Assembly: GCF_009914755.1 (NCBI RefSeq)
Contig: NC_060929.1
DNA: 64,000 nucleotides
Strand: one strand, 5' to 3'
DNA from: the human T2T-CHM13v2.0 reference genome, Homo sapiens
Shown: positions 7,271 through 57,682 of the stretch, piece after piece
Layout of the letters: each line of letters starts with the position of its first letter
How positions within the stretch are numbered: position 1 is the stretch's first letter
The notes under the pieces: generated by a model
Told to the model about the DNA's origin: nothing
The model's database searches: none
What the model saw: the letters and a program-made list of their open reading frames with translations, nothing else
Position numbers and translations under genes: made by a program

Positions 7271-7763
7271 TGTGATGGTTGATTATGTGTTAAATTGACA
7301 GGGCTAAGGGATGCCCAGATAGCTGATAAAGCATCATTTTTCTGTGTGTCTATGGAAGTGTTTCTGGAAGAGATTAGCATTTGAATCAGTAGACAAAGAT
7401 CCACCCTCACCAATGTGGGCAGACATCATTCAAACCATTGAGGGCTCAGATAGAACAAAAAATTGGAGAAATAGTGAATTCTCTTGCTTCTTGAGCTGGG
7501 CTACCCATCTTAACCTGCCCTCAGATATCAGAGCTCCTGGGTCTTGGGCTTTGGGACTCTGGGACTTACACTAGTCATCTCCCTGGTTGTCAAGCCTTAG
7601 CACGTGGAGAGAATTACACCACTGGCCTTCCTGTTCTCCAGCTTGCAGACAGCATATCATAGTACTTAGCCTCCATAATCTTGTGGGTCAATTCCCATAA
7701 GTATAGGATATATATATATATATATATATATAAAATTCTATTTCTCCAGAGAATCCTAATACA
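7271..7763 (+). mobile_element. MLT2C1/B-type ERVL solo LTR
   Basis: TGTGATGGTT...GGGCTAAGGGATGCCCAGATAGCTG...TAATACA; 5-bp TSD GCTTT (7266-7270, 7764-7768); internal (TA)n. Confidence 0.9.
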
Positions 7764-14900: not shown

Positions 14901-16868
14901 CTGAAAACAAAATTAAGTATTATGTATATGTTTTAAATTATACTCATGCAAGCAAATTGTTAATGATTAAGTGATGTTTGAAAATGTCTAATTTACAATG
15001 AAAGAATCCAAATTATAGAATTTACAAAATGTGGTCTGGAATGCAGGCTTATAAAATCAGTCTCTAATAGCAAAGTTAATAAGGGTATTGTAAATGTAAC
15101 ATTGCATTTGATTGAATGACTATGGAATATTGGCATTTGAGTTATTTAAATGAAAATACTCAATATTTGGCTATCCTGTAAAGAACCAGTTTCTCCTAAT
15201 CTATTCTCCTTGAGAGTAAGGGGCCCATGGATATAGCCTTTTCCCTGTCTTCACTGCCCCCTTCTCTTCCAAAAATTCCTACAAGCCCCAAGTTCTTATA
15301 TGGGCTGTGTGAATGCTTAAAAGTGAATCAAATTTCCTGTTTTTCATATTCGAAATGCTGTGGCACCCCTTAAGTCCCTTGAATGTCACACCTGTTTTAT
15401 GACAGGAGACACAACAAGGAATCCTAGTACCAAGGCAATATCAGTCGTGCAGGCCCTTAGTGAGGTCCTACTGTCCCCTAGGACAGTGGGCCTAGTCCAG
15501 GCCAGGGGAGTATCTCTTATCCAGGAATCTGTTCCTATCTTTTATCAGTGCCTCATGACATTGGAAAAAAAGTATCTTTTTCTCCATAAAACCCTCCTCT
15601 CTGCATTCAATTTGCACAGGAATGTACTGAGACACAGAGGTCTAAGAAGTACCTTCCCTGGAATCATCTGTTAAGTCAAAATGACCCCACGGTCTCCTTT
15701 CCTGGCAAGCCAGGATATGCTCCATTTGGAAATGTTCCCTCTGGTGTTCTCTAGTACTCTTCTCTCCAGTTACACCTTCTTCTGCTATTTCTCCAAGATG
15801 CCAAATCTAGAATTCTCCCAAATTTTAGGCTTTTATGAACAATATATGCAAAGGAGTGAAAAACCAGGCTGATATTTTGAGCCAAATCTCTTTTCTGCTC
15901 TAATGTAGAATTTGGTTCATCCTAAAGCTGTCTTGAACTCTCATTTCTTGCTCACTGAGACTGCTTTGCCAGCTGTCTTTTTTCCTGACACTAGAATATC
16001 CTTGGCCTAGGAGGTGGGTAGGATAGACTCTTCCAATCTAATCCAGCTCTGCTGAGACCTAGGTTGGGTTGTATATTGTGCTGTGCAGCAGAGCAGGTTC
16101 CAGTGAAAAATCCATTAAGTTCAGCCTTGTGTATTGATTTTTTAAAAGCCTGTTCCATTTCTTTTAGATCCTGAGAATGTGAACAAGTGATTATATTCAG
16201 TGCTGCATTAACTTGCTTGTACTTGTTTTCAAATGAACCATTATGACACAAATTACCTTGAAATGTAATAGTACCAGGTCAGAATGTTAGTATCTTTTTG
16301 GAGGCTGTCATCAATTATATGTACGGATTACAGTCTGAATAAAGGTCATTCCTACTCACTAATTCTGCCAGATTTCCCAGTTGGGGAGGACCTGCTTTAA
16401 AATGCAGGTTAATTTAAGGAAAAAACACCCTCCTACAAACTCATCGTTGAGGTGGGAGCTATTTGCATGAATATATTTATTTGTTCATGAATTTTCTACA
16501 GCACAGGAAGAGTGATTGAAGTTTTCCTTCTCCTTAATGCATAAATTTAGCTTTATTAGCTGTTACATGCATCTTGGTTTTTAGTTGGAATAACTCAGAG
16601 GGTCTTGATTTCTCGATCTCAAAAATTGGGCCCCTTTGGTTAATCTGTCTAAAGCGATTATCTGCCTTTGGGGCATTCGGAGACTTTTTAGGTCAGCACA
16701 CTAAATCTCACCAGAGCACGCCTTTTACACCCCCATTAATGCTGTTTTATTTATAGTTTTTATAAATTAAGGTATTTGATAAAGTTAATTTAAAGGAGGA
16801 AGTCATTATCTAAGGAAGAAACATGGAAGGGGAAGATAACAAAAATAAAGAACTGGTTTAAATTAGAG

Positions 16869-18198
<1,330 letters not shown>

Positions 18199-19960
18199 TT
18201 GTAACTCTGCAGACATTCCTAAAAGGAAGGTCAGTGACTGTAATCTCTCTGACATCTTGTAGTTGAGTTTCTGAATTCCTTCTCACTTCCAGGGGAGCCA
18301 GTACCTAAGGGCTGGAAGGTTCAGCCCTTTCCTAGTGTGATATTGCAGACTGTGCAAATGCTTGTCCTGAACCTAAAATGTCACAGGTTTATATTCGTTA
18401 TGTGATTTGTTCAGCATGTTTCTGACGCAGAAGGTGCCTTGCTCATTCCGAAACTATTTTGTCATTGATGAAACTCGTAGTCAGATAAAAATCAATATAA
18501 AGATGAGATGTAGTATGTCTACCTCATTATTTTAAAAAGAGGGCAATTCTTGTTCAGGATATAGTTTCTGAGGTTGCCTGAAGGAATCTGAAGTTTAAGT
18601 TTAGTATTAATCACACTGTCTGCCAATGAGCCCAACTGGCCTTGTGTTTCAGTGCTGGAAACAAAGGCAAAAAAACGTCAGCTCTAGACTTGGAAGCAGA
18701 AGTTCCAAAAGAGTCCCATTACCGTTTTATTTTTTCCCTTGGAAAGAAATAGGTTTCCAAGGAGAGACAGCCCAAAAAATAGTATCTCAAAGTACGACTT
18801 CTCCAAACCTTCTTTGGGTTTCCAGTTTGGCATAGAAACCCTGGTACTGTTGCAGGCTGTGTAGGTTACACAAGTTCAGCCTGAACCTGTATTCTACAGC
18901 AGAAATCTCCAAACAGGTGCCAACTGGAGGTAGTTCCCATTTTCCAGAGGCCTCATGACCCCTGGAGTGCAGGGAGTGGGGGCTGGAGATACTGAGAGTG
19001 AAGACCCTGAATGGTCAGGCAGTATTGTTGAAAGGGCAGGAGCATTGAAGAGCCCAGAGGCAAGGAAGGCAGTGAGGGGTTCCTGGAGCCATTTAGAAGA
19101 GAGTTGATGAGAGTCTCACCTAGAAGAGGTTGAGTGGGGATGAGAAAGAGAAGGAATATTTGAGAAAGGTTTCAAAGGCAACTCTCTAGTGCAGCCATGT
19201 CTCTTGAATTTTGTAGTGTCACTCTCCCTATTGGGTGTTGTTGACTGTGATCTTCAAATGTGAGGGTGAGAAAGCTTAGGATGGAAGCCCAGAAAGTAGG
19301 CACAACCTCACTCTAGTCATACAGCCCCGACCACTGTGACCACAAGCACAGTTTATTTACAGCTCCAAACTTCTTAACATTCAGCTCTCTCCTGCGTTCT
19401 CTTCATTCTCCACATTCCCAAGGAAGCCGTGTGTTCTGGCTTGAACTACCAAAATGTATAAATAATTGTGATTAACTAGGCCATAGTTTGATTAATTTTT
19501 TGTTTTGCTTTTAAATCAACCCTCCTCCCCCTAGGAGATACAGCAATGATATGAAATAAATGAAACCTGTGCTTATTACAATTCACCCTACATAAATCAT
19601 CCTGCCTTTGGTGAATGGGTAAATAGCTACTTGGAGGCTGCAAATTGAATGTGTTCAAGTACATTAAGAAACAGAACCGAGTATGAAATGAAAGTATTCA
19701 AGCAAGAAATTTCAGGGTTTTTTTCTCCCTCTCCTGCTCTCAAATATTTTCTGTGCTAGGGACTTGCCTGGGAGTCAGGAGGAGCAGGTTCTATAGTGCA
19801 AGGCTGAGTGTGAATGTGCCAGGCATCAGAAGCTGGCCTGGGGACCTTAAGCATCGTCCTTAGGATAAGAGAAGATGTGATAATTATCACACAGGGCTGG
19901 GTCTGAGTGGAATAAGCAGTGGACCAAAGGTAGTAGGTCTCTAGGCAGAATCTTTTCCAA

Positions 19961-21849: not shown

Positions 21850-22010
21850 TATTGCATTTGGAGATAGGGACTTTAAAAAGGTAATTAAATTAAAATGAGT
21901 TCATTAAATTGGGCCCTAATACAATATAACTGATCCTTATAAGAAGAAATTTGGGTACAGACACATACATACAAAGGAAATAAAATGTAAAAACATAAGA
22001 GGGACACCAA
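21850..22010 (+). mobile_element. MLT1B fragment
   Basis: ATTTGGAGATAGGGACTTTAAAAAGGTAATTAAATTAAAATGAG...GGGCCCTAAT...CCTTATAAGAAGA. Confidence 0.7.
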
Positions 22011-22558: not shown

Positions 22559-23176
22559 GAAATAAACTGTATTTGTAAACAAATTAATGTACTCTGGTGT
22601 TGCGGGCATTTACAAGAAAATCTGTCTTTCCTGATGAAGAAAAATAGCTGATTCTTGTTACCAGGCTTTAGACTAATTTGTGAAGATAAATTTTAGAGCC
22701 AGTTTAGAAAACAGATGAAATGAATTTGAGCTGCAATTTAGTAATGGCTTCTAAAGCTGTTGAGCAAATTGCTGAAGTAATTTTGGTATGTGAAACATAT
22801 TCACTAAGGAGAGTGAAAATTCAAACTCCTTGCCTCCCTGACAGAAGGATGATTAATAGCAGAACTAGAAGGATCAGCATTTTCATGGAAAACTCTAGAA
22901 ATCAGAGAGTTCCAAAGCTGTCATTAGTTTAGTTTTAAGGTTTTATAAGGAAAAAAACCAATGGCGAATTAAACATTTGTTAATTCAACCTGTATTATTT
23001 TATGAGTAGCTGTGTTATATGTACTTAAGTGAAGACAAGTGAGCTTAGAACTTAGAACCTAGAGTGTTTCATGTATGGTGCCTTCTTTCTGTTGATTTGC
23101 ATTTCCACCCCTGGGAAATGCTAAAGAGGACTAAGGACACCATTGAAATGTCACTCTTTCTGAATGAGGGAGATGG

Positions 23177-23320
23177 CAGTGCTTCTCAAACTTTAATGTG
23201 TTTACAGAACCCCTGGGGAGACTTCCTGAAACTTAGATTCTCATGAAGTCTGGGGTTGGGGGGCTGGGTGGCACCTCTGCTGATGAGCAGTTGGTAGACC
23301 ACTCCCTGAGGAAGGAGCTA
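23177..23320. mobile_element. MER5A1-like MITE
   Basis: CAGTGCTTCTCAAACTTTAATGTG start. Confidence 0.6.
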
Positions 23321-23545
23321 GAATCCTTCTGAGGTGCAAGTGTGGAGATGCTCCTCAGCCAGTGTGATCCTCCCTCTCCCCAACCTTCCCCTCAGCAACA
23401 ACCAGCAACATGTGATTTAAAAGTTTCCCTACTTTTATTCTTTTATACTTCCTTTCAGTTTAGATTTCTTTAGTGGTTGGGGGTAACAGTATTCTCCCTT
23501 AAAAATTCCTATGTGGGTCATTTCTTCTTAACACTTAAAACCGTT

Positions 23546-23932: not shown

Positions 23933-24345
23933 TATGTTAATTTGCTAGGGCTGCTGTAATAAGGTAGTACAGACTGGGGAGCTTAAACAACTGAAATGTA
24001 TTTGTTCACAGTTCTGGAGAATAGAAGTCCCAGGTTAAGGCATCAGCAGGGCTGGTTCCTTCTGAGGGCCATGAGGGAAAGATGCAGGCCTGTTCCTGTC
24101 CTCTCTTTTTGGCTTATAAATGGGTGTTTTCACATTGTCTTTCACTGGTATGAGTGTGTCTGTGCCCATATTTCCTTTTCTTAGAAGGATCAGTTATACT
24201 GGATTAAGGTCCAATTTAATCAACTCGTGTTAATTTAATTACCTCTTTAAAGTATCTATCTCCAAATGCAAGTACATTTTGAGGTTTTAGGGGTTAGAAC
24301 TTCAACAAATGAATTTTTTGGTGGGAGACACAATTCCATAAATAA
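23933..24345 (-). mobile_element. MLT1B MaLR LTR
   Basis: TTAATTTGCTAGGGCTGCTGTAA...CTTAAACAAC...GGGGTTAGAACTTCAACA...GACACAATTC. Confidence 0.85.
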
Positions 24346-49715: not shown

Positions 49716-50377
49716 TGTACTTCTAATAAATTTAAAAAAATGGCTATAACAAATCCTTTAGCAAGTCATTTGGTTTCCAATTCTTTTCTTTTGAATAATT
49801 GTGAACTGATAAATCATTAAAACTGTTTCGGATGACAGATTAGTGTGTAATTTGCAGTATAAAATTCCTCTGATTTACTTTAATTTTTAGGTACATAAAG
49901 TTTTTCAGCACTTTTCTACCAAAAAAATAGAATAGAACTGATCTTGAAACTGTTTTGTCCTGGTAGTAGATGATACTCACCAATGGATAGAATACATAAG
50001 CTAAATTTTAAAGGCTCATTTATCACATAAAAATGCATTTCCAATACAATTTTAATTTTAAATGCATTAAATTTTAACCCTTAGAATTTTATAGTAACAT
50101 AACAAAATAAATTTTAATTATAAATAAACATTATAGAATCATTAATAAAATATTTTCAGGTATAAAATGATAGGGATTAAATGATGTGTTGAAAGTGGAA
50201 TGGAAATATAAATTCAAGTAGAAAAAATAATTAAAATCTCTGAAAGTTTGTTTATATAATTTTTAAATGAATAATAGTGAGTATTGTGATGCTATTTACA
50301 TTCTATTTGTACAGTTAAAAGAGGTACATAGCAATTTTATTTAAAAATATAAATATTTATAATATGCTATAAAGGAC

Positions 50378-50915
50378 TGTTGGGAGACCATTCTCCATAA
50401 ATCTCTCAAATTTCTACATGTCTAGGCACTATTAGCCAAATGTTCCAAGACTCTCTTTTTAGGAAGGCTCACATAAATAGATTGCCTTGGAAAGATAGAG
50501 AAGCGACTCCCTCTGGAGCAAATTTACTTATATTCCTAACATTAAAGATAGAGATACTTCCTTCCTTTTCACAGAAAGATTTGCTTGTATTTCAGGGAAA
50601 AAGGAATAATGCATCTCTCCAGTGGAGAGGATAGGCACATTTTCTAAAAGCCCCTATCTAACATCAGCCTCTCAGTCTCAGGGTTCTCCTATAATGTATC
50701 CCCACCATGTGTGCAGGCAATATCTGACCTCATGACACCACCCCGTGGAAAATGGAGCTTGGGGAAAAATGGTGCCAAGATGTTATTACTGCTGAAAGTA
50801 ATAACTGTCTAAATCCATCTGGACTCATTGCTTTCCTATCAACTGAATCTGTGGAAGTGTGGAAGACAACTTTGCAGCTGCCACCATGGTACTACTGCTT
50901 AGGTACTGCTTGACA
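50378..50915 (+). mobile_element. LTR40-family ERVL LTR
   Basis: TGTTGGGAGACCATTCTCCAT start; GCCTTGGAAAGATAGAGA..CTCCCTCTGGAGCAAA; TTGACA end. Confidence 0.75.
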
Positions 50916-51207
50916 GTAAATGACACATTTCTCAAATATTTAAACATATAAAACAATTTAAATGTGAACTTAAAAATCAAATGCAAAACAAAGACTGTTT
51001 TCTATATCTTTAGCCCCTATAATTGTGCCTGGCAGATATTGGGCACTAAAATATTTGTTAAAAGAATAAATAGAAGAATAAATGATTAAATCAGTGGCTA
51101 TAGGATTTTCTGATTCATTTTTGCCTCCAAAATGCCATGGACTGGGTAGCATATTAAATATCTCGATTATATCTAAGTGGAAGAGGATATTTAAGAATTA
51201 AATTTCA

Positions 51208-51500
51208 GATTTTTATTCATTCCTTTAACAATGTTTTTTGAATACCTGCTCTGTGTTGATTATTTACTAGGTACTGGAAAGCAAAAGTGATTAAGAAACA
51301 GTTATTTCCTTCAAGGAAGCCTAGTGGAAAATGCACAAATATAATGCAACATTATAATTGTTAAAATGGAGTCATATGCAAAATGTCAGGTGACTCCAAA
51401 GGTTATAATGCCTAATTTGCCTGAGGGACTAGGGAGACTTTCCAAAGGAAGTGAGGTTTCCAGCTCACTCTTGAATTGTAGGTAGAAGTTTGTTAGGGGG
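51208..51500 (-). mobile_element. L2 3' region
   Basis: TTATTCATTCCTTTAACAATG...GAATACCTGCTCTGTG...CCTTCAAGGAAGCC. Confidence 0.6.
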
Positions 51501-52267
51501 TGTGTGCTGGTTAGAGGGAGCAAAGGAGTGAGACATTTGGGGACATTAGTAAAGATGGGGCCTAGGTTTTAGTATAGTTTACTTTTAAATAAATAATCTT
51601 CAATATATTAGAAATATTTATGACTACAGCAATAATAATAACAATATGATAAGGATTGACTTAAAACCTGCAACTTTCAAAATAATCATTGTCCTTGTTT
51701 TTTTGATAATTCAGTTTTGATAAACCATTGAAGAGATCAACCTTCAAGACTTGGGTTTGAAAGCTCATATTTCACAAACTGGGTGTGTTAATGGCATTCC
51801 CAATGTCACTTTTTGCCTCTTGAGAATTCCTGCAGGGGAATTCCGGCTTCTTTGGAAGCAGCTTAGAGTTAACAAGCAGCCACCCAAGAGAAATAGATTA
51901 TAAGTCAAAGGCAGACACTTTGGTAAAGCCAAAATGAATGAGTAGCTGTAAGCTAAAGACTGTCATCCCTGTAATTCCACCTCGATTGTTATATCTGGCT
52001 TTTTGAGCTGCTGTTTACCTAAAACAGTCAGCTAAGTGAGACTTTATAACTCAAAAGTAAATTCTTTGAAAATTGAAGAACCTGAGGCCAAGAAATCTTA
52101 CCTTAGCAAACTTCTGGGTGGGGGCTGGGTTTTGTTAGAATAGCATTTTTTATAACATTTTTCAAGGGCTCAGTAATGTAATTCTACCTAGCATTTAACT
52201 TTGATTTTCTGCAAATACTTTAAGGTTGCTGATTTGTTTTAAAATAAGAGTTTAACATAACAGTCAC

Positions 52268-53091
52268 TCTGATGGCTAATACTGAGTGTCAACTCGATTA
52301 GATTGAAGGTTGTGAAGTATTGATCCTGGGTGTGTCTGTGAGAATGTTGCCAAAGGAGATTAACATTTGAGTCAGTGGACTGGGGAAGGCAGACCGGCCC
52401 TTAATCTGGTGGGAACAATCTAATCAGCTGCCAGCGAATATAAAGCAGGCAGAAAAACGTGAAGAGGTGAGACTGGCCTATCCTCCCAGCCTACATCTTT
52501 CTCCTGTGCTAGAGGCTTCCTGCCCTCAAACATCGGACTCCCAAGTTCTTCAGTTTTGAAACTCGGACTGGCTCTCCTTGCTCCAAGCTTGCAGACAGCC
52601 TACTGTGGGACCTTGTGATCATGTAAGTTAATATTTAATAAACTCCTCTCTCTATATATATTACATCAGTCAAGAGACATTTTAGGGAGCTGTAACAAAG
52701 GAACAAAATTAAACAAGATCCGAATTATCTTTTCTTGTACCCTAAGTGGTGTATTTTTGCCTCTCTCCTGTATGACAGTATGTATAATTTTGTCGGGTGC
52801 CAGGAACTAGAAAATCTCCCCTCTGTTGACAGATATAGTTTACCTGGAAAAGAGAATGTCAGTGATTCAAAGGGCATGAGCTCTCGCTGGCTCTCGTCTT
52901 CATTATGAGTTCTCCCTTGGGCAAAAGGTATAAAAGAGCACATCACTTACATACCTGAACCATAATGAAATTGCATGTTTTGAAAAGGTCAGAATGCATA
53001 TATCAGAAACCTATATTAGTCAGGGTTCCCTCAAGTGACAGAACTATATATCCTATTAGTTTTGTCCCTCTAGGGAACCCTGACTAATATA
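52268..53091 (+). mobile_element. MLT2A1 (HERV-L) solo LTR interrupted by ~385-bp inverted insertion
   Basis: GATGGCTAATACTGAGTGTCAAC start; GAACCCTGACTAATATA end; 5-bp TSD GTCAC at 52263-52267 and 53092-53096; ~438 bp after removing the insert. Confidence 0.93.
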
Positions 53092-53441
53092 GTCACACAT
53101 TCTGTCATTCTGACGTTTCAAAACATGCAATGTCATTATGGTTCAGGTATGTAAGTGATGTGCTCTTTTATACCTTTTGCCCAAGGGAGAACTCATAATG
53201 AAGACGAGAGCCAGCTAGAGCTCATGCCTTTTGAATCACTGACATTCTCTTTTCCAGGTAAACTATACCTGTCAGCAGAGGGGAGATTTTCTAGTTCCTG
53301 GCACCTGACAAAATTACACATAATGTCATACAGGATAGAGGCAAAAACACACCACTTAGGGTATAAGAAAAGATAATTAGGATCTTGTTTAATTTTGTTC
53401 CTTTGCTACAGCTCCCTAAAATCTCTCTTGACAGATGTAAT
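52660..53441. repeat. long palindrome: arms 52660-53046 and 53057-53441, 10-bp spacer
   Basis: about 17 differences over the outer ~336 bp (~95%); 14/13-nt unpaired bubble; mirror 73-aa ORFs in the ORF track. Confidence 0.97.
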
Positions 53442-53585
53442 TGACACTGCTCATCAAGGCCCATCTTTTGACATTTAATCATGCACTGTCCTGTAACAGT
53501 TCATACATATTTTATGGTTGTGTATCTTGTCTCTATAATTAAGTCATAAGCCTTATGAGGAAAAGGACTCTGCCTTCTACCTCTT

Positions 53586-53965
<380 letters not shown>

Positions 53966-55696
53966 TAATGTATTAGCAGTTTTCAGCATAATATAGGTAT
54001 TCCATACATTTTTATTTGATGAAGCTCACTTGAATTGTCTCCTCCTCTGTAAGGATGCATGGGAGCAGCAGCACTGTGGGAGTGTTCTAACCAGAGGATG
54101 CTAATAACTGGCCATGCCTAGGAAACCATTTGAATTCCCTCTCCATTTCTTCCTCCTTCTCTGCCCTCCACCTTTCAGTGTAGCTACACACTATGCTATG
54201 TTTCTTTATTTATCTTACCGTGTAAGCCAGGGACATAATCTGGGTCAGGAGGAGATGTCTTCAAGTTATCAAGTGTGAGTTGTACTAATAAGATGTCACC
54301 ATATTCAGCTAAAGATGCATGTTTTATGAGAAACACACATGCATACTCTCCTTTCAGTTCCCATTTAGCTTTTACCTTGAGTTCTCCTCCCTGAATGGGG
54401 TTTGACATTTGGGAAACGAGGTTGGAAAAATTAGGCTTCAGAAGAACAATGGACACAGAGAAATGATCTGCCCAGTTTCCAGGGAAAAAGAGTTGGGATG
54501 TCTGCAAACAATTCCAAATGTATTTTGGGAGGAATGATATTAAAGAGGTGTTACCCTCCTCTCGTCTGGCCCTCTAGCCTTTGCAGCACCAACTCACCCA
54601 GTGCTCTTGGGCTTAACTGCTGCCCACAGGGAAGTCCTACAAAGTCATAGCCTCTTTGGCAAGGAATTCACTTCAGAATTTACTCTATCAAATATTTCAG
54701 AAAATGACTACCTCTGCTCAGGCTAGCAGGACCTACTAGAGGTCTGTTACTAGGCTCCACTTAACTTTGAAACCAGTGAGAACAAAATATTACAGGGTAT
54801 TATGGGCTTTATTTTTACCCCCACCAGAGTGTGGTCTAGAATGTCCGGAAAACATCCAGTGGAGGAGCAGAGCCCTAGCAGGTGATGAGCCTGGATCTAT
54901 AGTCTCCATTCCCCTTGCATGTGATGGACATGCTTCCAGAGCCATGCAACTAGCTTCTACTCTAGGTCTTAGCTAATGGGACTTGATCATGTCCTTAGAA
55001 CTCCAGTCTGTAGGATTAGAGCCCCCAACTCCTTTGCCTTTCCCAGTAGGGCTCTCCTTGAATGGAGCTTGATTTCTGGTCTCCACCTGACTTGACCACC
55101 TTTGTCATTAAGATGTCTATGTCCCCATACAATGCCTGATACATGATTCTACCACTTGTTTATCAATATTTAGCTCAGTCTCAGTTTTCTTGTACTATCT
55201 GAGACTTTATAACTTGGACTAGTGTCTTCTCTCTCCAGTTATTTCATCCTTAGCCTCAATCTTACACTTGCTTCTGCTTTCTCCCACCTCTTTGACAGGA
55301 TGTCACAGCACTCTTTGTGCCCAAGCCTGCTTCATATATGATTGTTGTACAAGAAATGTTTTGCATTCAACTCATATTCCTACCCAGATCTAGGAAAGTA
55401 AGTCAATGGTCTTTAGAGTGAAGTGGTTTGTTGATGTGCTGAAGGACACTTGAAAATGCAGGAGAACCAAGGGTAAGCCATGTATCCTCAGAGTCCTACT
55501 GGATTTTAAAAAATTTATAAAATGTAAATATACTCAGTTTTGACCTTATGAGCAAATCTAAATCAGCTTCCTGAGAAAAGTTTTGTCTTGACTTATGCCT
55601 CATTATTTGACTCATGTAGCTTATTTCCTTGTAGGCATAGGATGGCTTCCACTTGGGCAAGAAGTCAAGTCGTATTCTTCATTTGTTGTTAAAATA

Positions 55697-57682
55697 ATTT
55701 TGCTTTCTTTTTTAGAGTAATTTCAGGTTTACAGAAAAATCGAACAGAAATTTTCCCCACACTCTCTCCCTCCCACCTATTTTGACATCTTGCGTTAGTG
55801 TGGCATATTTGTTACAGTTGATGAATCATTATTGATACATTATTTTAAACAAAGGCCATTGTTTACATTAGGGTTCACTGTGTTGTACAGTGCCATGGAT
55901 TTTAATAAGTGCATAATGTTGCATATCCATCATTACAGTATCATACATAATAGTTTTACTACCCTAAAAATCCCCTGTGCTTCACTTATCCATTCTTCCA
56001 GTCCTTCTGCCAAGCCCCTGGCAACCACTAACCTTTTTTACTCTCTCTGAAATTTTTTCTTTTCCATATCATATAGTTAGATTTGTACAGTATGAACCCT
56101 TTCAGACTGGCATCTTTAACTTAGAAATATGCATTTAAGATTCCTCCACGTCTTTTCATGGAGTCATAATTCATTTCTTTTTATTGCTGAATAATATTCC
56201 ACTGTATTGCTATAACACAATTTGTTTATGCATTCACCTTTTGAAGGAAATCTTAGTTGCTTCCAAGTTTTGGCAGTTACAAATAAAGCTGCTATAAACA
56301 TCCAGTGCAAGTTTTTGTGTTGTCATACATTCTTAACTCAACTGGCTAAACACCAGGGAACACGATTGCTAGACTGTATGGTGAAACTACATATAACTTT
56401 GTAGAAACTGCCAGACATTCTTCCAAAGTGGCTGTGCCATTTTGCATTCTGTTCAATAATGAATGAGAGTTACTGTTGTTCCACATCCTCATCAGCATTT
56501 AGTGTTGTCTGTGATCTAGATTTTGGCCATACTAATAGGTGTGTAGTGATAACTCATTGTGATTTTAATTTGCACTTCTCTAATGACATATGATGTTGGG
56601 CATCTTTTCATATGCTTATTTGCCATCTGTATGTCTTCTTTGGTGAGATGTCTGTTCAGATCTTTTGCCCATTTTTAAAACTGGATTGTTTGTTTTTCTT
56701 ACTGTTGAGTTTTAATAGTTTTTATATTCTGAATTAAGTCCTTTATTAGATATGTGTTTTGCGAGTATCTTTTCCCAGCCTGCTACCTGTCTTTTAAATT
56801 TTTTAACACTGTCTTTCACAGAGTAAAAAAAATAAATAAATAAAGTTCAACTCGTCATTTTTTTTTCATAGATGATATTTTTGGTGTTGTATCTGGAAAA
56901 CTCATTGTCAAACCACAGGTCATCTAGATTTTCTCATATTTAATCTTCTACAAGTTTTATAGTTTTGTGTTTTACATTTAGGTCTATGATCCATTTTGAA
57001 TTTTCATGAAAGGTGTAAGTTTTGTGTTTAGATTCATTTTTTTTTTTTTTTGGCAATAGGATGTTCAATTGTTCTAGCACCACCTGTTGAAAAGACAGTC
57101 CTTTGTCCATTGAATTGTCTTTGCTACTTTGTCAAAGATCAGTTGACTATATTTGTTTGGGTCTATTCCTAGGCCGTCTATTTTGTTCATGACCCATTTG
57201 TCTATTCTTTTACCCTACCACACTGTCTTGATTACTGTAGCTTTACAGTAAGTCTTGTAGTCAGTCCTATGAGTCAGTCCTATGACCTTGTTCTTCTCTT
57301 TCAATATTGTGTTAGCCTCTCTGGGTCTTTTGCCTTTCACAAAAGCTTTAGAATCAGTTTGTTGATATCTACAAAATGACTTTATAGCATTTTTATTGGG
57401 ATTGTGTTTATAGATCAAGTTGGGAAGATCTGACATCTTAAACAATATTGAGTCTTCTTATTATCCATGAACATGCAATGTGTCTATAATTATATAGACT
57501 TTTTTTAATTTCTTCATCAAAGTTTTATAGTTTTATAGTTTATATAGTTTCTCATGTATATCTTGTACATAATTTTTTAAAAGATTTATGCCTAACCACT
57601 TTTTTGGTGCTAATGTAAATGATGTTTTTAATAACAAATTACTATTATTGATTGATGGTATATAGGAGAGTAATTAACTTAG
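55697..57682 (-). mobile_element. L1MC1/2-type 3'UTR and ORF2 3' part
   Basis: AGGTTTACAGAAAAAT...ACATTAGGGTTCAC...CCCTAAAAATCCCCTGTGC; ORF2 remnant YKTYCKATVIKTVW. Confidence 0.88.

What the first reader, a model, noticed from the sequence alone, without database searches (positions are those of the whole stretch)
52660..53441. ~780-bp fold-back palindrome made by an inverted self-copy inserted into the (TA)n tract of an MLT2A1 LTR
Seen: the LTR reads ...AATAAACTCCTCTCTCTATATATA [~385-bp insert] TATATCCTATTAG...GACTAATATA-GTCAC(TSD). The insert is the reverse complement of the LTR's own last ~36 bp plus ~340 bp of downstream flank that matches no repeat I recognise. The arms are ~95% identical with a 10-nt spacer and one 14/13-nt bubble exactly over the TSD. 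The TSD is intact outside, so the copy arose after LTR integration. Established: (TA)n tracts extrude cruciforms and break, and long, closely spaced inverted repeats are fragile and under-represented. Inference: a break in the TA tract was repaired by template switching onto the opposite strand of adjacent DNA, and the palindrome persisted long enough to diverge ~5%.
Basis: partly seen in the sequence, partly recalled or inferred. Interest (0 to 1): 0.8.

Follow-up and report, generated by a model that had tools for sequence, protein, structure and literature searches.

The report
Long palindrome grown from LTR TA-tract
A 782-base near-perfect DNA palindrome on human chromosome 5 arose when an old retroviral LTR's short TA repeat took in a backwards copy of the neighbouring DNA, and smaller scars of the same kind sit at the same spot in other copies of this LTR family.

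Summary
Window 52660-53441 is a 782-nt fold-back. The left arm is 52660-53046, the spacer 53047-53056 and the right arm 53057-53441. The outer 323 nt are 95.4% complementary, and there is one 14/13-nt bubble. The DNA fold has z = -45.

The left arm interrupts an ERVL-type solo LTR with an intact GTCAC target-site duplication. In 14 of 29 other family copies the LTR head runs straight into the tail. The arm sequence occurs only twice in the 3.1-Gb genome, namely as the two arms, so it is not a transposon.

Best reading: after integration, the self-complementary TA tract seeded snap-back or template-switch synthesis. This copied 35 nt of LTR tail plus 350 nt of flank and rejoined with no more than 2 nt of microhomology.

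New here: the event is not unique. Inverted copies of tail plus host flank lie across the same TA tract at other LTRs, with arms of 65-171 nt at 86-93% (L014, L033, L035, L061). One of them also captured mitochondrial COX1 DNA. Direct duplications occur there too.

This is a known kind of repair scar, unusually long and old. Its age and polymorphism could not be tested here.

The parts
52263..52267 (+). 5' copy of the 5-bp target-site duplication (GTCAC) of the solo LTR
   Evidence: Family copies place the LTR start 2 nt upstream of the common TGATGG word and show matching 5-bp duplications (e.g. L004, L005, L012, L020, L021, L023, L024, L025, L028). Read the same way, this copy gives GTCAC on both sides.
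52268..52659 (+). LTR head (ERVL / MLT2A-type solo LTR) up to its internal TA run; the polyadenylation-like AATAAA lies at 52638-52643
   Evidence: A 260-nt query from this part found 3523 first-look candidates in the genome; all 40 that were scored are 89-92% identical. blastn against 29 fetched copies aligns about 52270-52660 at 85-90.5%.
52653..52661 (.). TA run and outer junction; AT at 52660-52661 can belong either to the tract or to the copy (2-nt microhomology)
   Evidence: Sequence read; start of the alignment.
52660..53046 (-). Left arm: the inserted inverted copy. 52660-52996 is the reverse complement of flank 53107-53441; 52997-53010 is the bubble; 53011-53046 is the reverse complement of 53057-53092 (LTR tail plus first flank base)
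   Evidence: It is absent at this position in the 14 of 29 family copies whose head abuts the tail.
52997..53010 (.). Bubble, left side (14 nt): no homology to the right arm and no local template found
   Evidence: alignment; within 50000-56000 on both strands, the only other match at up to 2 mismatches is a chance-level 14-mer at 51766.
53047..53056 (+). 10-nt spacer (TATATCCTAT); this is ordinary LTR sequence (end of the TA run plus start of the tail), not filler
   Evidence: Family copies read TA run then CCTATTAG.
53047..53091 (+). LTR tail (original); bases 53057-53091 form the inner part of the right arm
   Evidence: blastn to family tails, 79-96% identity. 20 of 22 family tails are closer to this arm than to the copy, 0 of 22 the reverse, 2 equal.
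53092..53096 (+). 3' copy of the target-site duplication (GTCAC), intact in the right arm only
53092..53441 (+). Unique downstream flank that served as template (outer part of the right arm); it includes the right side of the bubble at 53093-53105
   Evidence: Whole-genome search with 53093-53441 gave 2 matches, itself and the left arm at 95%.

Best explanation
This is a scar of DNA repair, not a gene or a mobile element.

Shown. An ERVL-type solo LTR integrated and made a GTCAC duplication. Much later, 385-387 nt were inserted into its short internal TA run. The insert is the reverse complement of the DNA lying 11 to 395 nt to the right: 35 nt of LTR tail plus 350 nt of unique host flank. No LTR bases were lost. 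Both junctions carry at most 2 nt (AT/TA) of microhomology.

Inferred. The TA run broke, or a fork collapsed in it. The 3' end of the right-hand fragment ends in TA-type, self-complementary sequence. It snapped back on its own strand with a loop of about 10 nt and was extended for about 385 nt along that strand. The new strand was then unwound and joined to the left-hand end inside the TA run, by end joining or microhomology-mediated end joining. The result is head - TA - reverse complement of (flank + tail) - 10-nt loop - tail - flank.

Bubble and age. The 14/13-nt bubble and a cluster of three substitutions, all within about 60 nt of the inner junction and all on the copied arm, are most simply errors of that low-fidelity synthesis. 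Since then the arms have diverged to 4.6% (K2P 0.048). The central spacer, bubble and mismatches now make cruciform extrusion unlikely, which would explain why the palindrome survives.

Recurrence. The same process has acted repeatedly at the homologous TA tract of other copies of this LTR family. This is the longest example I found.
For: Anatomy.

Insert rather than ancestral state: the head abuts the tail in 14 of 29 family copies.

Self-copy made after integration: the copy includes 350 nt of host flank that occurs only twice in the genome. Both arms share T at 53090, where 18 of 22 family tails have C.

Which arm is the copy: the right arm keeps the target-site duplication. It has the family state at 3 of the 4 tail sites where the arms differ, each state shared by 20-22 of 22 copies. 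The left arm has the family state at 1 site.

Recurrence with host flank included, so independent post-integration events:
- L014: arms 171 nt, 89%.
- L033: arms 108 nt, 86%, with 57 nt of flank, plus a second 36-nt copy.
- L061: arms 149 nt, 93%, with about 92 nt of flank.
- L035: arms 65 nt, 91%.
- L012: a 140-nt insert in the TA tract that is a 90% inverted copy of DNA 1.5 kb upstream; 16 other genomic matches reach only 74-80%.

Break repair at this site: the L014 insert also holds about 230 bp that translate under the mitochondrial code to a COX1 domain (PF00115, E = 5e-12, above the curated cut-off).

Instability of the tract: 8 of the 22 sampled copies with both parts have at least 100 nt inserted there.

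Literature (passages or abstracts seen):
- TA repeats are break hotspots repaired by MMEJ/Pol theta, with templated insertions (PMC13645644, passages).
- Foldback inverted insertions at breaks run from 2 to about 150 bp, with median 2-bp microhomology at the capture junction (PMC11724301, passages).
- Pol theta performs stem-loop extension from only two terminal base pairs, with a slippage-prone mode (PMC11292364, abstract and outline).
Against: - The insert (385-387 nt) is longer than the foldback insertions reported experimentally (up to about 150 bp; PMC11724301). It is also longer than short-range template-switch events, which were sought with templates within 100 nt (PMC7954356).
- The TA run remaining at this locus is only about 6-8 units. 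From recall, that is far below the lengths at which TA repeats are known to be fragile. A longer tract before the event is an assumption.
- The TA tract is not specifically an inverted-copy hotspot. A scan for direct tail-tail pairs found about 6 LTR loci with tandem tail duplications, among 27 hits against 16 control hits.
- The motif scans give modest excess over their controls: 8 distinct loci against 3 control hits for inverted tails over gaps of 30-304 nt, and one of the 8 (L037) has no extended arms.
- Short tail-only or head-only palindromes could be inherited from a source element rather than being independent events.
- The product does not tell a two-ended break from a replication-fork template switch.
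- No outgroup was available, so I could not assign the 15 outer mismatches to one arm or the other.
Confidence: 0.6

Rival explanations
1. Replication-fork template switch without a two-ended break. The nascent strand stalls in the TA run, jumps to the opposite strand about 395 nt ahead, copies back towards the tract and returns. This is a four-point template-switch mutation, or FoSTeS/MMBIR-type event, and it gives the same product.
For: The topology fits the four-point model exactly: pure insertion, reverse-complement copy, return to the point of departure. Template-switch events that create whole hairpins in one step are documented in primates (PMC10710096, abstract) and are enriched near AT-rich tracts (PMC7954356, passages). 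L044 shows several nested head-end copies, including 70 nt at 100% and 60 nt at 98%, as expected from repeated switching.
Against: It needs about 400 nt of exposed template ahead of the stall. Documented short-range events use templates within 100 nt (PMC7954356). The mitochondrial DNA captured at the homologous site in L014 points to free ends. The cluster of errors lies at the inner junction, which in this model is the end of the copied stretch rather than its start.
Confidence: 0.25
2. Two-step palindrome growth. A short tail-only palindrome formed first across the TA run, as seen in L022 and L038. A later break let the 36-bp hairpin prime synthesis into the flank, and the bubble is the scar at the priming point.
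For: The bubble starts 1 nt past the LTR terminus, which is where the tail-only copy ends in L022 (44 nt, 100%, ends at the terminus). L033 carries both a tail-only copy and a tail-plus-flank copy. In this palindrome the inner 36 nt are more diverged (4 of 36 mismatches) than the outer block (15 of 323). A 36-bp stem is a far better primer than 2 nt.
Against: The difference in divergence is not significant (Fisher P = 0.11). The motif scans can only see copies that reach to within about 10 nt of the terminus, so the clustering of copy ends near the terminus is biased by how the copies were found. Three of the four inner differences sit on the copied arm as one tight cluster, which is equally explained by one-step error-prone copying.
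Confidence: 0.12
3. The palindrome is a mobile element (a MITE or DNA transposon with long inverted ends), two independent insertions of a repeat in opposite orientation, or an assembly artefact.
For: It sits in a TA run, which is the target of Tc1/mariner-type elements (recall). Fold-back chimeras do occur in long-read data (recall).
Against: The arm has no other copy in the 3.1-Gb genome. The centre of the palindrome is the LTR's own tail in continuity with its own flank and target-site duplication. The right end is not flanked by TA. The arms differ at 4.6% plus indels, which a chimeric read could not produce. Rfam gave nothing above any gathering score for the palindrome: the best match was 28.6 bits against a threshold of 211.
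Confidence: 0.02

Closest known systems
Foldback / snap-back templated inverted insertions at double-strand breaks (SD-MMEJ, Pol theta-mediated end joining; Pol delta + NHEJ hybrid in yeast, PMC11724301; Pol theta stem-loop extension, PMC11292364)
   Same: The insert is the reverse complement of DNA right next to the junction, with a short loop (10 nt). Microhomology at the junctions is 0-2 nt and the donor is kept. Direct duplications occur at the same hotspot, as expected if loop-out and snap-back repair both act there.
   Different: The length is 385-387 nt, against mostly under 35 nt and at most about 150 nt in the experiments. This event was fixed in the germ line and is old. The enzymes involved are unknown.
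Short-range template-switch mutations (four-point model; PMC5453318 search listing only, PMC7954356 passages, PMC10710096 abstract)
   Same: A single event writes a reverse-complement copy of nearby sequence and creates a complete hairpin. Such events are associated with AT-rich sequence.
   Different: Those events are tens of bases long, with templates within about 100 nt. Here the template reaches 395 nt away and the hairpin stem is about 385 bp.
Palindromic AT-rich repeats (PATRR11, PATRR22, PATRR8, PATRR17; review PMC7999016, passages)
   Same: It is a near-palindrome several hundred bp long with an AT-rich centre, in non-coding human DNA.
   Different: PATRRs are described as more than 90% AT; these arms are 61% AT. 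The centre here has a 10-nt spacer, mismatches and a bubble. No translocations or polymorphism are known for it.
Closely spaced inverted Alu pairs and engineered long palindromes (Lobachev and colleagues, as summarised in PMC7999016)
   Same: The arms are of Alu-like length (about 300-400 bp) and the spacer is about 10-12 nt, the geometry shown to stall forks and break in yeast.
   Different: The arms here are copies of unique DNA made in place, not two transposon insertions. At 4.6% divergence with a central bubble they should be much more stable.
Large fold-back inverted duplications of human chromosomes (PMC3907307, search listing and abstract start only)
   Same: Fold-back priming next to a break, leaving a short spacer between the inverted copies.
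   Different: Those span kilobases to megabases and end in a dicentric chromosome or a terminal deletion. Here synthesis stopped after about 385 nt and the end was rejoined locally.

Membership tests
Locally templated foldback (snap-back) insertion at a break | The insert is the reverse complement of sequence adjacent to the junction on the same chromosome, and the donor is retained | tested here: met
   left arm 52660-53046 is the reverse complement of 53057-53441, and both are present.
Locally templated foldback (snap-back) insertion at a break | Short loop between template and copy, and 0-5 nt of microhomology at the junctions | tested here: met
   10-nt spacer. AT at the outer junction and TA at the inner junction are each ambiguous between tract and copy.
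Locally templated foldback (snap-back) insertion at a break | Size within the reported range (2 to about 150 bp; PMC11724301) | tested here: not met
   385-387 nt.
Locally templated foldback (snap-back) insertion at a break | Dependence on Pol theta or Pol delta plus end joining | not testable with these tools
   Needs genetics or biochemistry.
Short-range template-switch mutation (four-point model) | Reverse-oriented high-identity template close to the mutation (within 100 nt in PMC7954356) | tested here: inconclusive
   The template starts 11 nt away but runs to 395 nt away.
Short-range template-switch mutation (four-point model) | Ancestral state without the copy, shown by outgroup species | not testable with these tools
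   No primate genomes were available. Family copies of the LTR stand in for the ancestral state of the LTR part only.
PATRR | Near-perfect palindrome of several hundred bp | tested here: met
   782 nt, outer arms 95%.
PATRR | More than 90% A+T (PMC7999016) | tested here: not met
   Arms are 38.8% and 39.0% G+C; the central 60 nt are 43% G+C.
PATRR | Size polymorphism and translocation breakpoints in people | not testable with these tools
   Only one human assembly was available.
DNA transposon / MITE with long terminal inverted repeats | Multiple copies in the genome | tested here: not met
   2 matches, which are the two arms.
DNA transposon / MITE with long terminal inverted repeats | Target-site duplication flanking the whole palindrome | tested here: not met
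   The left side lies in the TA run; the right side reads TGACAC.
ERVL-type (MLT2A-like) solo LTR | Member of a multicopy LTR family with shared ends | tested here: met
   3523 candidates, 40 of 40 scored at 89-92%. Shared start and end words in 29 copies.
ERVL-type (MLT2A-like) solo LTR | 5-bp target-site duplication | tested here: met
   GTCAC at 52263-52267 and 53092-53096. Matching 5-bp duplications in at least 9 family copies.
ERVL-type (MLT2A-like) solo LTR | Assignment to subfamily MLT2A1 by a repeat library | not testable with these tools
No Dfam or RepeatMasker library was available.

The most novel reading that the evidence does not exclude
The short TA run carried by every ERVL/MLT2-type LTR acts as a standing palindrome nursery. 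Because a broken or stalled 3' end inside (TA)n is its own complement, it repeatedly primes backwards synthesis. This writes inverted copies of the neighbouring LTR and host DNA, from about 24 nt to at least 385 nt, in either direction. The process runs from tens of millions of years ago (arms 86-89% identical) to very recently (arms 100% identical in L022 and L044, which may be polymorphic in people). Thousands of dated LTR copies with a known starting sequence would then form a natural mutation-accumulation experiment. It could measure how long palindromes, including possible forerunners of PATRR-like fragile sites, are born, grow stepwise and are stabilised by central scars in the human germ line.
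Probability: 0.45. Interest if true: 0.7.

Novelty: new member of a known kind. Interest (0 to 1): 0.55.

Why it matters
Long, closely spaced inverted repeats are among the most break-prone sequences known, yet how they arise in the human germ line is mostly inferred from tumours and yeast. This locus shows a complete before-and-after picture. The LTR family supplies the starting sequence, both junctions can be read to the base, the template is unique DNA, and the product has survived for a long time with a spacer, a bubble and mismatches at its centre.

Smaller scars of the same design sit at the homologous TA tract of other LTR copies, one of them with captured mitochondrial DNA. This suggests a recurrent, sequence-driven route from a harmless dinucleotide run to a palindrome hundreds of bases long. 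It also offers a simple genome-wide test, using dated transposon copies as controls. If the 100%-identical examples are polymorphic, they could be followed in pangenomes.

For this single locus I see no gene, no RNA family and no evidence of function.

Tried and rejected
- RNA gene: Rfam over 52000-54000 at E up to 1 gave 8 matches, none above its gathering score. The palindrome drew only plant-miRNA hairpin look-alikes (best 28.6 bits against 211). The other matches lie in the Alu at 53634-53934, apart from one weak PVT1_3 match (14.5 bits) at 53251-53336 in the right arm.
- Transposon or independent insertions: rejected by the whole-genome search.
- Assembly artefact: rejected on arm divergence. 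It could not be checked against reads.
- Gene conversion between the arms: the longest mismatch-free run is 84 nt, with P = 0.16 by permutation. A post-hoc split (14 of 225 distal against 1 of 98 proximal) gives Fisher P = 0.045. I treat this as not established.
- Template for the bubble: none within 50000-56000 on either strand at up to 2 mismatches (14-mer) or 4 mismatches (20-mer).
- In-place inversion of the bubble: looked at by eye, only a weak 5-of-7 match, dropped.
- Other TA runs in the window: one run of at least 6 units (7709-7732, 12 units), with no inverted flanks.
I replaced it with five scans of about 30-60 nt each, covering gaps of 30-304 nt.
- Genome-wide counts of long palindromes with short spacers: the passages read in PMC4057610 and PMC7999016 gave none, so I make no rarity claim beyond this window and these scans.
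- A literature search for this LTR family with TA repeats or palindromes (25 papers held at least 2 of 3 terms, 12 listed) showed nothing on this phenomenon. That search, is the only basis for saying I did not find it in print.

Full report
**What is there**

Window 52660-53441 is a 782-nt fold-back. The repeat finder reports two arm pairs: 52660-52985 / 53116-53441 (326 nt, 95% complementary) and 53011-53046 / 53057-53092 (36 nt, 89%, 10 nt apart). A gapped alignment joins them into a left arm 52660-53046, a spacer 53047-53056 and a right arm 53057-53441.

The outer ungapped block has 15 mismatches in 323 nt: 8 transitions, 7 transversions, 3 at CpG. Between the two blocks lies a 14/13-nt bubble, left 52997-53010 against right 53093-53105.

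As single-stranded DNA the region folds at -391.8 kcal/mol, against -78.4 +/- 6.9 for 20 shuffles (z = -45). No other inverted repeat in the window comes close: of 6 pairs with arms of at least 60 nt within 3 kb, the next is 121 nt at 82%. The arms are 39% G+C.

**The LTR and the direction of copying**

A 260-nt query from 52400-52659 found 3523 first-look candidates in the window's own 3.1-Gb genome. The 40 that were scored are 89-92% identical. I fetched 30 loci, one of which is this locus, and compared the other 29 by blastn:
- In 14 of 29 the LTR head is followed directly by the 45-nt tail.
- In 8 of 29 at least 100 nt lie between head and tail.
- In 7 of 29 no same-strand tail was found.

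The 387 nt between head (ending at 52659) and tail (starting at 53047) are therefore an insert in the LTR's TA run.

The ends and 5-bp duplications of family copies place this LTR at 52268-52659 plus 53047-53091, with GTCAC at 52263-52267 and 53092-53096. The right arm is the original. It keeps the tail in continuity with the duplication and the flank. 20 of 22 family tails are closer to it than to the left copy, and none is closer to the left copy.

Both arms carry T at 53090, where 18 of 22 family tails have C (listing). The copy was therefore made from this LTR after it had already mutated in place.

The 349 nt of flank in the arm (53093-53441) have two matches in the whole genome, the two arms.

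**Junctions**

At the outer junction, AT at 52660-52661 can be read as the end of the TA run or as the start of the copy. At the inner junction, the TA at 53045-53046 is ambiguous in the same way.

The 10-nt spacer is plain LTR sequence. No LTR base is missing, and about 12-16 nt of TA run remain in total. The event is a pure insertion with at most 2 nt of microhomology at each end.

**The bubble and the inner cluster**

The right arm holds the intact duplication, so the left (copied) arm is the altered one. The bubble can be read as two nearby indels of about -5 and +6 nt, anchored on two TTCTG words. This is my reading of the alignment. No template for the left-hand 14 nt exists within 50000-56000.

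In the tail the arms differ at four sites. At three clustered sites (53067, 53070, 53071) the right arm has the state of 20-22 of 22 family copies. At one site (53062) the left arm has the state of 21 of 22.

The copied arm thus carries three substitutions and two indels within about 60 nt of the inner junction. Either low-fidelity synthesis or a two-step origin would explain this. The data do not decide between them: inner against outer mismatch density gives Fisher P = 0.11.

**The event is not unique**

The two searches used different evidence.

From the 29-copy sample:
- L014 (C2:166.87 Mb) has head - long TA-rich tract - reverse complement of (about 110 nt flank + tail) - about 230 nt of foreign DNA - TA-rich tract - tail - flank. 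The arms are 171 nt at 89%. Read with the vertebrate mitochondrial code, the foreign DNA matches Pfam COX1 (E = 5e-12, 45.9 bits against a cut-off of 34.8). It is a captured mitochondrial fragment.
- L022 (C13:22.52 Mb) has a 44-nt, 100% identical inverted tail copy that stops at the LTR terminus.
- L012 (C10:66.13 Mb) has a 140-nt insert in the TA run. It is a 90% inverted copy of DNA 1.5 kb upstream, while 16 other genomic matches reach only 74-80%.
- The other five inserts (L010, L021, L024, L026, L028) are TA/CA-rich expansions.

From exact-motif scans of the genome for an inverted tail facing a tail, over gaps of 30-304 nt, there were 9 hits at 8 distinct loci, against 3 hits for the reversed-pattern control. 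Besides this locus they are:
- L033 (C2:6.163 Mb): arms 108 nt at 86% including 57 nt of flank, plus a 36-nt tail-only copy.
- L035 (C5:103.05 Mb): 65 nt at 91%, in a different MLT2-type LTR.
- L038 (C15:56.01 Mb): 43 nt at 93% and 39 nt at 97%.
- L060 (C5:53.96 Mb): 101 nt at 79%, largely microsatellite-like.
- L061 (C5:29.72 Mb): 149 nt at 93% including about 92 nt of flank.
- L022 again, which serves as a positive control.
- L037, which has no extended arms and looks like chance.

A mirror scan for the head end facing its own inverse gave 11 loci against 5 control hits. Extended arms were found in L040 (38 nt, 95%), L044 (70 nt, 100%, with further nested copies) and L043, L045, L046 and L048 (24-33 nt).

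**Results against a special 'inverted' process**

- A scan for direct tail-tail pairs (27 hits, 16 control, mostly unrelated minisatellites) includes about six LTR loci with tandem tail duplications. The site therefore makes both orientations.
- Short tail-only or head-only palindromes could be inherited from a source element. Only the copies that include host DNA (this locus, L014, L033, L061, L012, and marginally L035) are certainly independent.
- The sample of 29 is the top of a similarity ranking, not a random draw.

**Mechanism**

The product needs a 3' end in the TA run to be extended on the opposite strand of the DNA just to its right, and then joined back inside the TA run.

I favour a break with snap-back priming and end joining (0.6), for these reasons:
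- A 3' end of TA-type sequence pairs with itself.
- Mitochondrial DNA was captured at the homologous site in L014.
- Both orientations of duplication occur there.
- Published work shows breaks at TA repeats repaired by MMEJ with templated insertions (PMC13645644, passages), foldback inverted insertions with median 2-bp capture microhomology (PMC11724301, passages) and Pol theta stem-loop extension from two base pairs with a slippage-prone mode (PMC11292364, abstract).

A fork-based template switch gives the same sequence and cannot be excluded (0.25). A two-step growth from a tail-only palindrome is a third option (0.12).

What does not fit any of these comfortably is the length. At 385 nt it is more than twice the longest foldback insertion in the yeast study, and well beyond the short-range template-switch class (PMC7954356, passages).

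The tract here is short now, and I only infer that it may once have been longer, from the expansions seen in 5 of 29 sister copies.

**Age and persistence**

K2P distance between the outer arms is 0.048. With recalled neutral rates of 0.5-1.2e-9 per site per year, this gives about 20-48 My. Errors made at birth would make it younger, and arm-to-arm conversion would make it older. No outgroup or population data were available, so this is a prediction, not a result.

By the principles summarised in PMC7999016, longer, more similar arms and shorter spacers are more dangerous. The present 10-nt spacer, the 89% inner stem and the bubble should therefore damp hairpin and cruciform formation, which is consistent with survival. 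That link is inference.

**Comparison and verdict**

The palindrome works like a foldback templated insertion and has the topology of a template-switch mutation. It meets their structural criteria but not their size range.
- It is not a PATRR: 61% A+T against more than 90%.
- It is not a transposon.
- It matches no Rfam family above threshold.
- There is no annotated gene in the window (hub note).

I file it as a new, unusually long member of a known kind of repair scar. The added observation is that the TA run of this LTR family is a recurrent site of such scars, and that is the part most worth following up.

Noticed in passing
L014:2296-2525 (G000 C2, about 166.871 Mb): About 230 bp of mitochondrial COX1-like DNA (Pfam PF00115, E = 5e-12 under the mitochondrial code) is captured inside the expanded TA tract of another LTR copy, next to an inverted copy of that LTR's tail and flank.
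   Followed up: partly
L044:1197-1631 (G000 C7:106148665-106148736 and surroundings): There are several nested copies of the LTR head end around the TA tract, including inverted arms of 70 nt at 100% and 60 nt at 98%. It looks recent and iterative, so it is a candidate for polymorphism in people.
   Followed up: partly
L012:1760-1899 and L012:94-233 (G000 C10, about 66.13 Mb): A 140-nt insert in the TA tract is a 90% inverted copy of DNA 1.5 kb upstream of the LTR. Sixteen other genomic matches reach only 74-80% over about 60-95 nt, so the donor was local.
   Followed up: partly
L050, L052, L053, L056/L057, and G000 C19:15838162-15838246: There are direct (tandem) duplications of the LTR tail, some with a few tens of bases of flank, at the same TA-tract region in other copies. 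The hotspot makes both orientations.
   Followed up: no
L022:1873-1916; L033:1546-1590; L035:1482-1552: Short inverted tail copies end 0, about 4 and about 6 nt past the LTR terminus, that is, within the length of the 5-bp target-site duplication. The bubble in the window's palindrome starts at +1. The motif scan can only see copies that reach near the terminus, so this may be ascertainment.
   Followed up: partly
window 21852-21945 and 24178-24271: A 94-nt inverted repeat (88% complementary, 2232 nt between the arms) brackets the annotated RefSeq enhancer at 22898-23448.
   Followed up: no
window 17161-17281 / 17611-17731 and 16863-16943 / 18124-18204: Two nested inverted-repeat pairs (121 nt at 82% and 81 nt at 78%) surround a masked repeat at 17729-18084. 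They are probably inverted copies of a common repeat.
   Followed up: no
window 53577-53940: An Alu (weak SRP, mir-1268 and mir-3135 look-alike hits in Rfam) follows a (TTA)n run at about 53605-53635. It carries an internal tandem duplication of about 25 nt near 53768-53820.
   Followed up: no
L006, L008, L013, L016, L017, L031, L032 (5' side); L007, L015 (3' side): Several family copies are preceded by the same ...GGGGTGGACTTG word or followed by the same GATTTTGGTACCAGG word. These are LTRs still attached to internal proviral sequence rather than solo LTRs.
   Followed up: no
window 7709-7732: This is the only other (TA) run of at least 6 units in the window (12 units). Its flanks show no inverted relation.
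   Followed up: yes
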